From: Escherichia phage vB_EcoS-101114BS4
Reading direction: 5' to 3' (one strand)
DNA: 45,251 nucleotides
Sequence record: NC_073061.1
The position numbers and the translations under genes were made by a program. How positions within the stretch are numbered: position 1 is the stretch's first letter; the number at the start of each line of letters is the position of its first letter. This document shows, one piece after another, positions 28,307 through 31,665 of this stretch. The notes under the pieces are model-generated. The model did no database searches. It was not told the origin of the DNA and saw nothing but the letters and a program-made list of their open reading frames with translations.

Positions 28307-28900
28307 TTATTTAAGTGCGCTAGTCACCAGTGTTTTTTCCATATTGCGGAAGTCTTCCGGCGTCATGAGTATTTTGGACCCATCCTCGCCAGTGAGCACT
28401 ACCATAGGCTGGACTTCTTGATCTGCCACACCGAAATTGGCAGCTTTAACCGTCTTTCCGAACGAGGCCACCGTATCCTCGGCAACGCGCATTGCACTGT
28501 TATACGCATTAATCTCGCCATCCAGGCGCACGGACAGGTCCGAAGGCTTGAACGCGCCGCCGGTCTTGATAGGCCAACCTTTGAGGCTGTCGAATTGCGC
28601 TGCCGTTGTATCGATCTGAATCTCGTCATGCACGGTCATGTAAGACTCGCCCAGCAAAGCGGAATACGCAACCAGATCAACAATATTGTCTTCCTGGTGC
28701 TTACGGTGCTGGCGCACCAGCTTCAGGCAGATCAGGAAGGTCCAGGCTTCTTGCTCGGTAAGGTCGCGACCGGTAAGCGCGTTAAACACGGCAGCGATTT
28801 GCTTCGCGCTGCGTTCTTCTTTCGCGTTGTCATAGCCGTTTTCTTTCCCGCGCTGTTCCATAGTGGTGGCGGCGTTCTTGCAGTATTCAAATGCTTTCAT
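28307..28900 (-). CDS. Hypothetical phage protein
   Basis: 197 aa with AAGGAAA RBS; the N-terminal 85 aa resemble a widespread phage family of unknown function (not verified). Confidence 0.55.
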   Translation of the reverse strand: MKAFEYCKNAATTMEQRGKENGYDNAKEERSAKQIAAVFNALTGRDLTEQEAWTFLICLKLVRQHRKHQEDNIVDLVAYSALLGESYMTVHDEIQIDTTAAQFDSLKGWPIKTGGAFKPSDLSVRLDGEINAYNSAMRVAEDTVASFGKTVKAANFGVADQEVQPMVVLTGEDGSKILMTPEDFRNMEKTLVTSALK

Positions 28901-28950: not shown

Positions 28951-28972
28951 TGCAACCAACCTATTGGTTGCA
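28951..28972. promoter_or_regulatory. Perfect palindrome TGCAACCAA-CCTA-TTGGTTGCA (candidate operator)
   Basis: 9-bp inverted arms with a 4-bp spacer, overlapping the stop codon of the HAD gene and 50 bp upstream of the next start. Confidence 0.6.
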
Positions 28973-29431
28973 AGTAAATTTTGCTACGTTTATAGAATAA
29001 ATTTTCGGGACCAGATCGCCGCACGCGCGACGGATGGCTTCGATATTCTTCGGGCAGTCTTCAATGATGACCAGTTCGGACACGTCCGCATAGCACACCA
29101 TTTTGAACACCGCGCACGCCTTAAACTCTGGCGGCGGGGTGTCATCCAGCATGTGGCGCATAAACAACCGGCCCACCGGGAAGATCTCCAGTTGCTCGGC
29201 GGTGGTGTCCCAACATTCGCGCTGCCGGTTTGTCAGATACGCGATCTCGAAGCCTTGCTCTTTGTACATGCGCAACAGCGGCAGCATATCCATGTTAAGG
29301 TCTTCGCGTACGTGTGCTTTGTGCCACTTCGCCCAAAAGGTTGATTTGGTTTTTATGCCGGGCACCAGGTCAGCACGCGCATCACTTGAACCATTAATAA
29401 CGCCATCCAGATCACAAATCAGTAGTTTCAT
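28961..29431 (-). CDS. HAD-superfamily phosphatase, 5'(3')-deoxyribonucleotidase-like
   Basis: N-terminal HAD motif I LICDLDGVI; 156 aa. Confidence 0.55.
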   Translation of the reverse strand: MKLLICDLDGVINGSSDARADLVPGIKTKSTFWAKWHKAHVREDLNMDMLPLLRMYKEQGFEIAYLTNRQRECWDTTAEQLEIFPVGRLFMRHMLDDTPPPEFKACAVFKMVCYADVSELVIIEDCPKNIEAIRRACGDLVPKIYSINVAKFTCNQ

Positions 29432-29652
29432 TTTAAGCTCTCAATAAGGGTGTGTCGGGCGCTTCGCGCAGTAAAGGAGTTGCATACGAAGTGGCAACGT
29501 TTGGTTATGACAAGCCAACCGGTAAGGTCCAGGCCCATGATGGATTCGGGTCGGGATACACGCATCACGCGGTCGCGGCGCGGGTCAATGGAGAAGTCCC
29601 GTTGCATTTGGTCCACTACCGCGGGGTCGCGGTCAACGACTAAGATATTCAT
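29428..29652 (-). CDS. Hypothetical protein
   Basis: 74-aa ORF with GAGAGAG RBS, translationally coupled (ATGA overlap) to the downstream gene. Confidence 0.5.
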   Translation of the reverse strand: MNILVVDRDPAVVDQMQRDFSIDPRRDRVMRVSRPESIMGLDLTGWLVITKRCHFVCNSFTARSARHTLIESLK

Positions 29653-30118
29653 GTAGTTCTCTCTCGCTCATTATTTCAATTTGTGCGCTGCCGTTTGGCG
29701 GCGCTTCATCAAATATTATCAATTGCTGGCACTTGTTATTGCTCGGCCCAACTTCGCCGGTCACAGCATGGATGAATCGCACACGCCAGTCCAGAAGAAT
29801 TATCATATTGGCAGTCTTCCGGGCCAGCTTCGCCCACTTCGTTGACGTGTCCTGATTCAGTAGCATGACAGTACGGCGTCCGTGCGCAGCGCACTCGACC
29901 CACGGCAGCGGATCGGAGTACGGCGGATTGCACCACTTCCACCCTTTCAACTCTGACCAGTCCGCCTCAAGCGCGCTATGCTCCGCCGTGAAGTAGCGCG
30001 GTAGCAGGTGATTGGTGTCGCTTGCCGCCATATCGTAACGGAATCGGTATTTCTTACGAAGCGGTTTAAATAAAGCTGGCGGCGTACGCCAGCTATCTTT
30101 TTGCTCACTCTTCGTCAT
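29633..30118 (-). CDS. DNA N6-adenine methyltransferase, phage Dam-like
   Basis: WCNPPYS (motif IV N-PP-Y) and upstream WRTPPALFKPL, about 160 aa, consistent with the short phage Dam family; start chosen at the ATG at 30118. Confidence 0.6.
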   Translation of the reverse strand: MTKSEQKDSWRTPPALFKPLRKKYRFRYDMAASDTNHLLPRYFTAEHSALEADWSELKGWKWCNPPYSDPLPWVECAAHGRRTVMLLNQDTSTKWAKLARKTANMIILLDWRVRFIHAVTGEVGPSNNKCQQLIIFDEAPPNGSAQIEIMSERELHEYLSR

Positions 30119-30569
30119 TCTGCGGGTCCAGTGCGTATAGGGCAATCTTTTCGTATTTGCCGACTATGCGATGCACGCGCTTTGCGTCCTCTTCACTACG
30201 TGGGCGCGCATCCGGGTAGTAGCTACCCGTCTGAGTATTGTGCCACGCCACAAGCACCAAATCTTTACGATCAACCTTAGACTGTCTACCTTTAGGTCGC
30301 ACGTACTCCTCCGCACGTTTGCAATGTTCCCGCAGCCCTTCGGCAGTGATGCGGTTTAGCGCAACGCTGGTTGTGTATCCGGTGCGCTGCATAATCCCCA
30401 TCAATTCGAAAAGCAGTTCGAAGCGTTCCTCTAACTCCCGGCGCACTTTCTTCTCTCCTTCATATAGCGCCTGGTTGGTGTCCGCCAGCGCGTTCGCGCG
30501 TTCGGCCTGTTCACGGGCTTCGAGGCATTGCGCGGCCCAGTATGCTTTTTCTTCTTGTAAAATTTTCAT
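30105..30569 (-). CDS. Hypothetical coiled-coil protein
   Basis: ATG at 30569 (MKILQEEKAYWAAQ...) with GGAG RBS; the GTG at 30611 lies inside the terminator hairpin and is rejected. Confidence 0.55.
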   Translation of the reverse strand: MKILQEEKAYWAAQCLEAREQAERANALADTNQALYEGEKKVRRELEERFELLFELMGIMQRTGYTTSVALNRITAEGLREHCKRAEEYVRPKGRQSKVDRKDLVLVAWHNTQTGSYYPDARPRSEEDAKRVHRIVGKYEKIALYALDPQNDEE

Positions 30570-30588
30570 CGTGTTGTCTCCAGGTATT

Positions 30589-30613
30589 AAAAAGGGCGTC
30601 CAACCGGACACCC
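30589..30613 (-). terminator. Internal intrinsic terminator in the leftward operon
   Basis: On the minus strand: gggugucc-gguu-ggacgccc hairpin (one G-U pair) followed by uuuuu. Confidence 0.55.
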
Positions 30614-30623
30614 TTAAGATAAT

Positions 30624-30648
30624 GCAACCAATCTAATTACGCAACCAA
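30624..30648. promoter_or_regulatory. Pair of direct GCAACCAAT motifs
   Basis: GCAACCAA at 30624 and 30641 (17-bp spacing) between the stop of gene 30650..30973 and the internal terminator. Confidence 0.5.
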
Positions 30649-30649
30649 T

Positions 30650-30973
30650 TTATTCATAAAAATTCGGGTCGCGCGCTACATCTACCAGATAAAGGTTGCT
30701 CATTCGGTTGCCGTAGTGCCCTGGCGTGCGCTGGCGACACACAACTGCGAAGCCTGGAGGGATTGTATTGCCGGTTTCGATAATCCACGCCACGCGCGCG
30801 CCAGACAGCTTCTTGCCGTTGCATTCGATACGCGTACCGCCATCGGCAGTGTTAAGGTTGCCAATCTTGCAGCCGGTGGACTTCAGACGGATGACGCCGG
30901 TCTTACTGTCGTAGGTGAATAGTTGGTTAGTCATTGCGACCGAAAAATCGATGGCTTCGAATGTAGTGTTCAT
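30650..30973 (-). CDS. Hypothetical protein
   Basis: 107-aa ORF with GAGGA RBS; a C-terminal H..N..N pattern is too weak to call an HNH nuclease. Confidence 0.5.
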   Translation of the reverse strand: MNTTFEAIDFSVAMTNQLFTYDSKTGVIRLKSTGCKIGNLNTADGGTRIECNGKKLSGARVAWIIETGNTIPPGFAVVCRQRTPGHYGNRMSNLYLVDVARDPNFYE

Positions 30974-31665
30974 TTTAAATTTTCCTCATTGACTGCTATT
31001 GCGAAGCCGCGCGGAGTGAGCGACCGGATTAATTTGGTGCGGGCAGATTTGCCACCGAGGCGACTATACTGCTTCGAGTACCCTTTTTCAACGAATACCG
31101 GCTTTTTCTCCGGCATACGAAAGCCATTGCCAGTCCATAAACAGGTCAGCTTTGGGTATGAATCGCGGTCGTTGATGTATTCCGGGAACAACGGATGTAC
31201 GTCATCCTCCGGCAGATAGCCGCCATATTCCCACGGATCAAACGAGTGGTCTGGCTTGCGCCACTGGGTGGATAGCACACTGCGCGGATTCTCAATCATA
31301 TATGGCACTTCAAAGAAGTCACCCAGGTAAGCGGCAATCTTCGCGGTGCGCACTGCCTTAAGCTGAAAGGCGGGGTCTTTCGCACGCTTGCACGGGAAAG
31401 CTGGCGCACCGCTCACCGCCAGATCCGTACACGGCGGAAACGCGTAGATAATATCCGGCGTGCCGAAATCGCCATTCATCGCGCGGTCCACGAAGTCCAG
31501 ATCGATAAACTCGTTACGATAGCGGATACCGCGACCATAAATCCGGTAGTCAAGGTAAGACCCGTGATCGGCTTCCGAGTAGTTGAAACAGTAGCATTTA
31601 TGCCCCATCTCGGCAGCGCGCTCTATCATCAAGCCGCTGCCGTCAAATAATGACCAGATAATCAC
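30970..31665 (-). CDS. Compact C5-cytosine methyltransferase-like protein
   Basis: GTG start with AGAAGG RBS; motif I SLFDGSG, motif IV FPPCTD (catalytic Cys), motif VI-like ENP; only 231 aa, leaving little room for a target-recognition domain. Confidence 0.55.
   Translation of the reverse strand: MIIWSLFDGSGLMIERAAEMGHKCYCFNYSEADHGSYLDYRIYGRGIRYRNEFIDLDFVDRAMNGDFGTPDIIYAFPPCTDLAVSGAPAFPCKRAKDPAFQLKAVRTAKIAAYLGDFFEVPYMIENPRSVLSTQWRKPDHSFDPWEYGGYLPEDDVHPLFPEYINDRDSYPKLTCLWTGNGFRMPEKKPVFVEKGYSKQYSRLGGKSARTKLIRSLTPRGFAIAVNEENLK

What the first reader, a model, noticed from the sequence alone, without database searches (positions are those of the whole stretch)
29633..30118. Phage Dam-like N6-adenine methyltransferase gene
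WCNPPYS and the overall size fit the short phage Dam family. Together with the C5-methyltransferase-like gene this gives two putative DNA-modification enzymes in one operon, consistent with a multi-layer anti-restriction strategy.
Basis: partly seen in the sequence, partly recalled or inferred. Interest (0 to 1): 0.45.

Follow-up and report, generated by a model that had tools for sequence, protein, structure and literature searches.

The report
Ordinary small phage adenine methyltransferase gene
This is a real but ordinary gene: a small DNA adenine methyltransferase of the phage T1/HP1 "Dam" family, found in essentially every known phage of this genus (Dhillonvirus) and labelled as an adenine methyltransferase in many of their public records.

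Summary
A 161-aa ORF on the minus strand (ATG 30118, stop 29633-29635) carries WCNPPYS at residues 62-68.

- **Family:** it matches Pfam PF05869 "Dam" at 126 bits (cut-off 28.1) over almost the whole profile. It is 35% identical to HP1 Dam and 31% to T1 Dam, which is experimentally GATC-specific.
- **Fold:** the model is confident (pLDDT 92) and lies closest to N6-adenine methyltransferases.
- **Selection:** purifying, dN/dS 0.05-0.13.
- **Source:** the window is a Dhillonvirus coliphage, 97% identical to phages SP1 and CHD5UKE2. The same gene occurs in about 156 records, many of which label it "DNA N-6-adenine methyltransferase" or "Dam-like".
- **Neighbour:** the C5-methyltransferase-like gene (30970-31665) is also genuine. 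Its fold is DNMT3B/M.HhaI-like, and its family includes the phage Dcm that triggers retron Ec86.

Three things are not shown. The target sequence is inferred to be GATC (about 0.65). "One operon" is doubtful, because a terminator-like hairpin separates the two methyltransferase blocks. The anti-restriction role is untested, and published Dhillonvirus phenotypes show no broad restriction resistance.

Verdict: correct call, already known, low interest.

The parts
29633..30118 (-). CDS of the 161-aa Dam-like (PF05869) DNA N6-adenine methyltransferase. ATG at 30118, TGA at 29635-29633.
   Evidence: ORF and sequence. Pfam PF05869 126 bits. PHROG 111 at 3e-55. Same boundaries in annotated orthologues. 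dN/dS 0.05-0.13.
29918..29929 (-). Codons for NPPY (residues 64-67), the catalytic motif IV. In the model it lies immediately after strand 60-63.
   Evidence: Sequence. N64, P65 and P66 are invariant and Y67 nearly invariant in 59 family members. The motif is invariant across T1, HP1 and 933W homologues. Secondary structure.
30020..30034 (-). Codons for DMAAS (residues 29-33). This is the motif I-like segment at the end of the first strand and the presumed SAM-binding loop.
   Evidence: D29, A31 and A32 are at least 90% conserved. D29 and A32 are invariant with T1, HP1 and 933W. Strand 26-32 in the model. The SAM-binding role is inferred from the class I methyltransferase fold.
30105..30569 (-). 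Upstream gene of unknown function, probably 154 aa from ATG 30569. Its stop (30107-30105) overlaps the methyltransferase ATG by 14 nt, which suggests translational coupling.
   Evidence: Orthologue bas15_0034 is 465 nt. RBS GGAG at 30581-30578. PHROG 10530 is labelled 'DNA ligase' but has no Pfam or NCBIfam support.
29428..29652 (-). Downstream 74-aa gene of unknown function. Its ATG at 29652 overlaps the end of the methyltransferase gene by 20 nt.
   Evidence: PHROG 10685 at 4.8e-43.
30589..30615 (-). Terminator-like hairpin AAGGGUGUCC-GGUU-GGACGCCCUU followed by a U run. It lies between the HNH gene and the block that contains the methyltransferase gene.
   Evidence: Sequence and fold. A terminator is annotated at the equivalent position in phage WFI. 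Function not shown.
30650..30973 (-). HNH (homing-type) endonuclease gene lying between the two methyltransferase genes.
   Evidence: PHROG 99 at 3.5e-15. Annotated as a putative homing or HNH endonuclease in relatives.
30970..31665 (-). It carries FDGSG (7-11), PPC (77-79) and ENP (125-127).

Best explanation
The gene encodes a minimal, single-domain, SAM-dependent DNA N6-adenine methyltransferase of the phage 'Dam' family (Pfam PF05869), the family that holds T1 Dam, HP1 Dam and the Stx-phage nin-region enzyme.

**How it is built (inferred from fold and conserved motifs).** The protein is little more than the Rossmann-type catalytic core.
- The loop after strand 1 (D29-M-A-A-S) binds SAM.
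- The NPPY loop after strand 4 (residues 64-67) holds the flipped-out adenine and catalyses methyl transfer to N6.
- There is no separate target-recognition domain. Recognition probably rests on the conserved N-terminal K-D-x-W-x-T-P segment and the conserved hairpin at residues 110-130 (R112, F115, T120, G121, N127, K129).

**Likely target.** GATC, with probability about 0.65, by homology with the three characterised relatives.

**When and why (inferred).** The gene sits in the minus-strand replication block, next to helicase, DNA polymerase, a Dcm-like C5 methyltransferase and a nucleotide kinase/phosphatase-like gene. It is translationally coupled to its neighbours, so it would be made while phage DNA replicates. 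Its job would be to methylate phage DNA fully at a rate the host Dam cannot match. That gives site-specific protection against enzymes blocked by that methylation, and possibly other replication or packaging benefits. T1 is the precedent: deleting its dam leaves the DNA only partly methylated and cuts burst size to about 60%.

**Shown:** gene, family, fold, motifs, selective constraint, genus-wide conservation.
**Inferred:** activity, target sequence, timing, benefit.
For: **Family and homology**
- Pfam PF05869: 126 bits against a cut-off of 28.1, E 1.6e-36, covering 4-151 of 169.
- PHROG 111: 3e-55.
- T1 Dam (YP_003925.1, itself PF05869 at 1.7e-70): 31% identical, E 5e-17.
- HP1 orf13 (HP1 Dam): 35% identical, E 1e-30.
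- 933W orf10 (PF05869 at 1.2e-64): 36% identical.
- 30 positions are invariant across these four proteins, including D29, A32, NPPYS, R112, F115, T120, G121, N127 and K129.

**Fold**
- AlphaFold2 model: pLDDT 92.4, pTM 0.89, NPPY directly after strand 60-63.

**Constraint and distribution**
- dN/dS 0.05-0.13.
- Present at 80% identity or more in about 156 phage records, and at lower identity in about 1,600 more.
- 5,025 representative clusters at E <= 1e-3.

**Literature**
- T1 Dam methylates GATC. Host Dam only partly methylates dam-deleted T1, whose burst falls to about 60% (PMC10470545).
- M.EcoVT2Dam targets GATC (PMC6602927).
- HP1 and VT-2 Dam are cloned Dam enzymes (references listed in PMC7556043).

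**Gene arrangement**
- Overlaps of 14 nt and 20 nt with the flanking genes.
Against: - No biochemical or methylome data exist for any Dhillonvirus enzyme in the library searched.
- The protein scores 86.7 bits against TIGR01712 'phage_N6A_met', below that equivalog model's cut-off of 97.05. It is a divergent subclade.
- It lacks T1 Dam's roughly 50-aa N-terminal extension and roughly 15-aa insertion, so its specificity could differ.
- Identity to characterised enzymes is only 31-36%. The NJ tree is star-like and unbootstrapped.
- GATC is only mildly under-represented, O/E 0.73 against 0.78 in T1. This says nothing either way.
- No solved structure of the family exists: no PDB sequence hits and best Foldseek TM 0.64.
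- BASEL phenotypes give no sign that methyltransferase genes confer general restriction resistance.
Confidence: 0.85

Rival explanations
1. It is the same enzyme class, an active DNA N6-adenine methyltransferase, but its target is not GATC. It could recognise another short motif, or have relaxed specificity, as might be expected of a 161-aa enzyme with no target-recognition domain.
For: - It scores below the TIGR01712 equivalog cut-off.
- It forms its own clade, apart from T1/HP1 and 933W.
- It lacks the T1 N-terminal extension and insertion.
- The host already methylates GATC, so a different site would add more protection.
- Non-specific phage adenine methyltransferases do exist, though in another family (PMC7556043).
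Against: - All three characterised PF05869 members, which are spread across the family tree, are GATC-specific.
- The candidate recognition residues R112, F115, T120, G121, N127 and K129 are invariant between them and this protein.
- HP1 Dam is equally small, at 173 aa.
- The known non-specific enzymes checked here are unrelated. The phiP27/OS31 type is 352 aa, and M.EcoGIX is beta-class with DPPY.
Confidence: 0.25
2. It methylates RNA or another non-DNA substrate. The closest solved structure is the mRNA cap-adjacent adenosine methyltransferase PCIF1/CAPAM.
Against: - Sequence identity to PCIF1 is only 10-14%.
- The sequence homologue T1 Dam is a proven DNA GATC methyltransferase.
- The gene sits in a DNA replication and modification block.
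Confidence: 0.03
3. It is a catalytically dead methyltransferase-like protein kept for a binding or regulatory role. Alternatively, it is the modification half of a restriction-modification pair with the nearby HNH nuclease.
For: An HNH endonuclease gene lies 532 bp upstream. No activity has been measured.
Against: - All catalytic and cofactor motifs are invariant, and dN/dS is low.
- The HNH protein matches the phage homing-endonuclease family PHROG 99 and is annotated as such.
- A terminator-like hairpin and another gene separate it from the methyltransferase.
- A virulent phage gains nothing obvious from a restriction enzyme aimed at its own target site.
Confidence: 0.03

Closest known systems
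Orthologues in sequenced Dhillonvirus phages, e.g. PaulFeyerabend bas15_0033 'Dam-like N6-adenine methyltransferase', WFI_00041, CHD5UKE2, SP1
   Same: - Same gene, same 486-nt length and same neighbours.
- 88-98% protein identity.
- Many of the public records already annotate it as an adenine methyltransferase; SP1 and a few others list it only as hypothetical.
   Different: Only a few conservative substitutions. None of these orthologues has been tested experimentally, as far as the searched library shows.
Phage T1 Dam (YP_003925.1, 237 aa)
   Same: - Same Pfam family PF05869, 31% identity.
- Same motifs, D-x-A-A and NPPY.
- Also carried by a small virulent coliphage related to Dhillonvirus.
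- Experimentally GATC-specific and needed for full methylation and full burst size (PMC10470545).
   Different: - T1 Dam has a roughly 50-aa N-terminal extension and a roughly 15-aa insertion before the conserved R-x-x-F hairpin. Both are absent here.
- Its genomic context differs.
Haemophilus phage HP1 Dam (orf13, 173 aa), and the Stx-phage 933W orf10 (175 aa; possibly the VT2-Sa Dam)
   Same: - Similar minimal size.
- 35-36% identity, E 1e-30 for HP1.
- Nearly identical W-x-NPPYS-x-P-L-P-W/F-V segment.
- HP1 Dam is a cloned Dam enzyme (reference list in PMC7556043), and M.EcoVT2Dam is reported as GATC-specific.
   Different: - These are temperate phages, so the genes sit in a P2-like early operon or the lambdoid nin region.
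- They pass the TIGR01712-type annotation, whereas the window protein falls below that cut-off.
- That M.EcoVT2Dam is the 175-aa nin-region protein rests on my recollection. It was not verified here.
E. coli Dam / T4 Dam / DpnM (alpha-class, Pfam PF02086)
   Same: Presumed same chemistry and probably the same GATC target. Hence the label 'Dam-like'.
   Different: - Not the same family. No PF02086 hit at E <= 0.01.
- Those enzymes carry a target-recognition domain between motifs I and IV, and none is present here.
- PMC10470545 also notes no significant similarity between T1 Dam and host Dam.
Gamma-type N6-adenine methyltransferases with solved structures (M.TaqI, HsdM, CamA, MmeI) and PCIF1
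   Different: - Only 11-19% identity.
- Those proteins carry large recognition domains or partner subunits, whereas this one is the bare core.

Membership tests
Pfam PF05869 'Dam' (phage T1/HP1-type DNA N6-adenine methyltransferases) | Profile match above the curated gathering score, over most of the domain | tested here: met
   126 bits against 28.1, E 1.6e-36, profile positions 4-151 of 169.
Pfam PF05869 'Dam' (phage T1/HP1-type DNA N6-adenine methyltransferases) | Catalytic motif IV (D/N)PPY directly after the fourth strand | tested here: met
   NPPY at residues 64-67, after strand 60-63. Invariant in the family alignments.
Pfam PF05869 'Dam' (phage T1/HP1-type DNA N6-adenine methyltransferases) | Motif I-like D-x-A-A(S) after strand 1 (cofactor loop), and the conserved N-terminal D-x-W-x-T-P | tested here: met
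   D29, A31, A32 and D8, W10, T12, P13 are at least 90% conserved in 59 sequences. D29, A32, D8, W10, T12 and P13 are also invariant with T1, HP1 and 933W.
Pfam PF05869 'Dam' (phage T1/HP1-type DNA N6-adenine methyltransferases) | Direct sequence homology to an experimentally characterised member | tested here: met
   T1 Dam: 31%, E 5e-17. HP1 Dam: 35%, E 1e-30. T1 activity is documented in PMC10470545.
Pfam PF05869 'Dam' (phage T1/HP1-type DNA N6-adenine methyltransferases) | Class I SAM-methyltransferase fold, nearest to N6-adenine methyltransferases | tested here: met
   [not shown]
Pfam PF05869 'Dam' (phage T1/HP1-type DNA N6-adenine methyltransferases) | N6-methylation of adenine in DNA at GATC | not testable with these tools
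   Needs expression in a dam- host, or methylation-aware sequencing of virion DNA. No such data for Dhillonvirus were found.
NCBIfam TIGR01712 'phage_N6A_met' (equivalog) | Score at or above the curated equivalog cut-off | tested here: not met
   86.7 bits against a cut-off of 97.05 (E 1.3e-24, positions 6-159 of 165). This is a relative of that equivalog group, not a member by NCBI's criterion.
Classical Dam (E. coli Dam / T4 Dam, alpha-class, PF02086) | Profile match to PF02086, and a target-recognition domain between motif I and DPPY | tested here: not met
   [not shown]
Orphan (solitary) phage methyltransferase, i.e. not part of a restriction-modification pair | No cognate restriction endonuclease gene alongside | tested here: inconclusive
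   Neighbours were scanned with Pfam, PHROGs and NCBIfam. The only nuclease is a homing-type HNH (PHROG 99), two genes away and beyond a terminator-like hairpin. The flanking small proteins have no known function.
DNA C5-cytosine methyltransferases (for the neighbour at 30970-31665) | Motif I F-x-G-x-G, catalytic P-C, E-N-x motif, and the C5-methyltransferase fold | tested here: met
   [not shown]

The most novel reading that the evidence does not exclude
The Dhillonvirus enzyme may represent an uncharacterised, stripped-down subclade of the T1/HP1 Dam family. It is 161 aa, has no recognition domain and falls below the TIGR01712 equivalog cut-off. Its target could differ from GATC, or be relaxed. 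Alternatively, its main biological significance could be as a liability or trigger sensed by methylation-monitoring defences, such as retrons of the Sen2 type, in the way the sister Dcm-like enzyme family triggers retron Ec86.
Probability: 0.2. Interest if true: 0.35.

Novelty: already known. Interest (0 to 1): 0.1.

Why it matters
Little is at stake. The call is a correct routine annotation of a core gene of a well-sampled coliphage genus.

Its practical value is modest:
- Dhillonvirus phages carry a Dam-like plus Dcm-like pair that mimics the two host orphan methyltransferases.
- This matters for predicting sensitivity to restriction enzymes blocked by, or dependent on, those marks.
- It also matters for defences triggered by phage methyltransferases.

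The one real gap is that no member of this subclade has had its target site or its phenotype measured.

Tried and rejected
1. **Sequence search of the PDB** with both methyltransferases gave no hits even at E <= 1-10. Fold comparison was used instead.
2. **Non-specific adenine methyltransferases as possible close relatives.** Rejected: M.EcoGIX is a plasmid-borne beta-class DPPY enzyme. The OS31/phiP27 type is a 352-aa protein at a different locus. The M.EcoGI/GII group was not examined directly here.
3. **Literature on Dhillonvirus methylation.** Searches with the terms Dhillonvirus + methyltransferase, Dhillonvirus + methylation, and BASEL + 6mA found genome annotations only, with no methylome or digestion data.
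4. **Site-frequency analysis.** GATC O/E is 0.73 here and 0.78 in T1; CCWGG is about 0.9. This is too weak to infer specificity.
5. **Neighbour-joining tree of 146 family members**. It is star-like and unbootstrapped. It was used only to note that the GATC-specific enzymes are dispersed and that the window clade is distinct.
6. **A second adenine methyltransferase gene,** as listed for phage Ioannina. None was found by the motif scan.
7. **The longer TTG start at 30145.** Rejected in favour of ATG 30118, which matches the annotated orthologues and the family alignment.

Full report
**What is there.** On the minus strand, an ORF runs from ATG 30118 to the stop at 29635-29633 and encodes 161 aa. 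WCNPPYS occupies residues 62-68, encoded at 29935-29915. The stop of the upstream gene (30107-30105) lies 14 nt inside this ORF. The ATG of the downstream 74-aa gene (29652) lies 20 nt before its end. The gene is therefore tightly packed and probably translationally coupled. NPPY is the only (D/N/S)PP(Y/F/W) motif in a credible ORF in the whole window.

**Where the window comes from.** The 2.7 kb around the gene is 97% identical to Escherichia phages SP1 and vB_EcoS-CHD5UKE2, and 88-93% identical to about 150 other Dhillonvirus records. The window length of 45,251 bp equals a full genome of this genus. In many of those records the orthologue is already labelled 'DNA N-6-adenine methyltransferase' or 'Dam-like N6-adenine methyltransferase', for example PaulFeyerabend bas15_0033 and WFI_00041, with identical 486-nt boundaries. 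Others, including SP1, list it only as hypothetical.

**Family assignment.**
- Pfam PF05869 'Dam' matches at 126 bits against a gathering score of 28.1, E 1.6e-36, over profile positions 4-151 of 169.
- PHROG 111 'DNA methyltransferase' matches at 3e-55.
- The stricter NCBIfam equivalog TIGR01712 'phage_N6A_met' matches at 86.7 bits, below its 97.05 cut-off. The protein is a divergent relative, not a member by that criterion.
- Pairwise, it is 31% identical to T1 Dam (E 5e-17), 35% to HP1 orf13, the HP1 Dam (E 1e-30), and 36% to 933W orf10.
- T1 Dam and 933W orf10 are themselves strong PF05869 members.
- Thirty positions are invariant across these four proteins. They include D8, W10, T12, P13, D29, A32, N64-P-P-Y-S68, R112, F115, T120, G121, N127 and K129. 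The same positions are conserved in a 59-sequence alignment.
- The family is large: 1,758 phage records and 5,025 representative clusters at E <= 1e-3.

**Structure.** An AlphaFold2 model built on the 59-sequence alignment is confident, with pLDDT 92.4 and pTM 0.89. It is a bare Rossmann-type methyltransferase core. DMAAS follows strand 26-32, and NPPY follows strand 60-63. No extra domain is present.
- Classical E. coli Dam, T4 Dam and DpnM score only 7.5-7.7.
- Foldseek agrees, with PCIF1 at E 6e-4 and TM 0.58-0.64.
- No family member has a solved structure.

So the protein is 'Dam-like' by presumed target, not by descent from host Dam. It has no PF02086 match.

**Is it functional?** Nei-Gojobori dN/dS against the PaulFeyerabend and WFI orthologues is 0.11-0.13, and 0.05 between those two. 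All catalytic and cofactor motifs are intact. The gene is present in every Dhillonvirus record matched.

**What it most likely does.**
- T1 Dam is the very protein compared here. Experimentally it methylates GATC in a dam- host.
- When it is deleted, host Dam only partly methylates T1 DNA, and burst size falls to about 60% (PMC10470545).
- M.EcoVT2Dam is reported as GATC-specific (PMC6602927).
- HP1 and VT-2 Dam are cloned Dam enzymes, per the reference list in PMC7556043.
- In a rough NJ tree these characterised enzymes are dispersed, and the window's clade is separate from each.
- With the invariant candidate recognition residues, this makes GATC the best guess at about 0.65. It remains an inference.
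- Points against certainty are the missing T1 N-terminal extension and insertion and the sub-threshold TIGR01712 score.
- Site counts are uninformative: GATC has 150 sites at O/E 0.73, against 0.78 in T1.

**The second enzyme and the 'operon'.** The 231-aa ORF at 30970-31665 has no Pfam hit at E <= 0.01. It does match PHROG 757 'DNA methyltransferase' at 1.2e-81.
- It has invariant FDGSG, PPC and ENP motifs.
- Family members of 236-238 aa carry C82, E128, K175 and K176. These are the residues mutated in the 711-bp (about 236-aa) Dcm-like enzyme of the KarlJaspers-like phage K42.
- That enzyme produces 5mC on Ec86 msDNA and acts through its CCTGG site, and it triggers the retron (bioRxiv 10.1101/2023.08.16.553469). 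The window protein has K172-L173 at the K-K position.

So 'two DNA-modification enzymes' is right. 'One operon' is doubtful. Several features lie between the two genes:
- an HNH homing-type endonuclease gene (30650-30973);
- two copies of a recurrent 9-mer;
- a terminator-like hairpin with a U run (30615-30589);
- then a good RBS and ATG 30569.

Phage WFI's record annotates a terminator at the same place.

**Anti-restriction.** This is plausible only in the narrow, site-specific sense, against enzymes blocked by m6A at the target site or by 5mC at CCWGG. In the BASEL study Dhillonvirus phages are comparatively sensitive to the type I-III systems tested. For Drexlerviridae, methyltransferase gene content showed no simple relation to restriction resistance (PMC8594841). 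Phage methyltransferases are also liabilities, because retrons sense them.

**Verdict.** The operon and anti-restriction add-ons are unproven. The gene is a routine feature of a well-sampled phage genus, already annotated as an adenine methyltransferase in many public records, so it rates as already known and of low interest. The only open point is the unmeasured target site of this minimal subclade.

Noticed in passing
window, 15 sites: 1771, 9994, 10008, 26110, 28963, 30624, 30641, 33582, 40432, 43250, 43285, 43567, 43657, 43688, 44243: The 9-mer ATTGGTTGC occurs 15 times against 0.6 expected (maximum 3 in 100 shuffles). At least 11 copies lie outside the ORFs mapped here, and many form pairs 14-35 nt apart upstream of gene starts. 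It is probably a phage-specific promoter or regulator-binding element. One pair sits just upstream of the block containing the Dam-like gene.
   Followed up: partly
window 30589-30615 (minus strand): A terminator-like hairpin (10-bp stem, GGUU loop, U run) lies between the HNH gene and the next gene. It implies that the listed GTG start at 30611 is wrong. The gene probably starts at ATG 30569 (154 aa), as annotated in PaulFeyerabend.
   Followed up: partly
[not shown]
   Followed up: partly
window 30105-30569 (minus strand): The protein immediately upstream of the Dam-like gene matches PHROG 10530, labelled 'DNA ligase' (9e-88). It has no Pfam or NCBIfam hit and is only about 154 aa. The label looks unreliable and the function is unknown.
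   Followed up: no
window ~30570-30650, compared with L004 (phage WFI) 3071-3313: Several relatives (WFI, 22664B1, Bas83/85, mckay and others) carry an extra 243-bp small gene (WFI_00043) between the 154-aa gene and the terminator. This window lacks it, so the site is an indel hotspot next to the HNH gene.
   Followed up: no
whole window: CTAG is strongly depleted, 11 observed against 57 expected (O/E 0.19). GGCC is at O/E 0.71 and TATA at 0.63. CAGCTG, CTGCAG and GGATCC each occur only once.
   Followed up: no
window 28307-28900 and 28961-29431 (minus strand): Downstream in the same block are a DUF6378 protein, which PHROGs mislabels 'phosphofructokinase', and a HAD-type phosphatase / polynucleotide-kinase-like protein (PHROG 415 at 2e-36; Pfam Acid_phosphat_B below cut-off). 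An inverted pair of the 9-mer, one copy imperfect (GTTGGTTGC), lies between them at 28951-28972.
   Followed up: no
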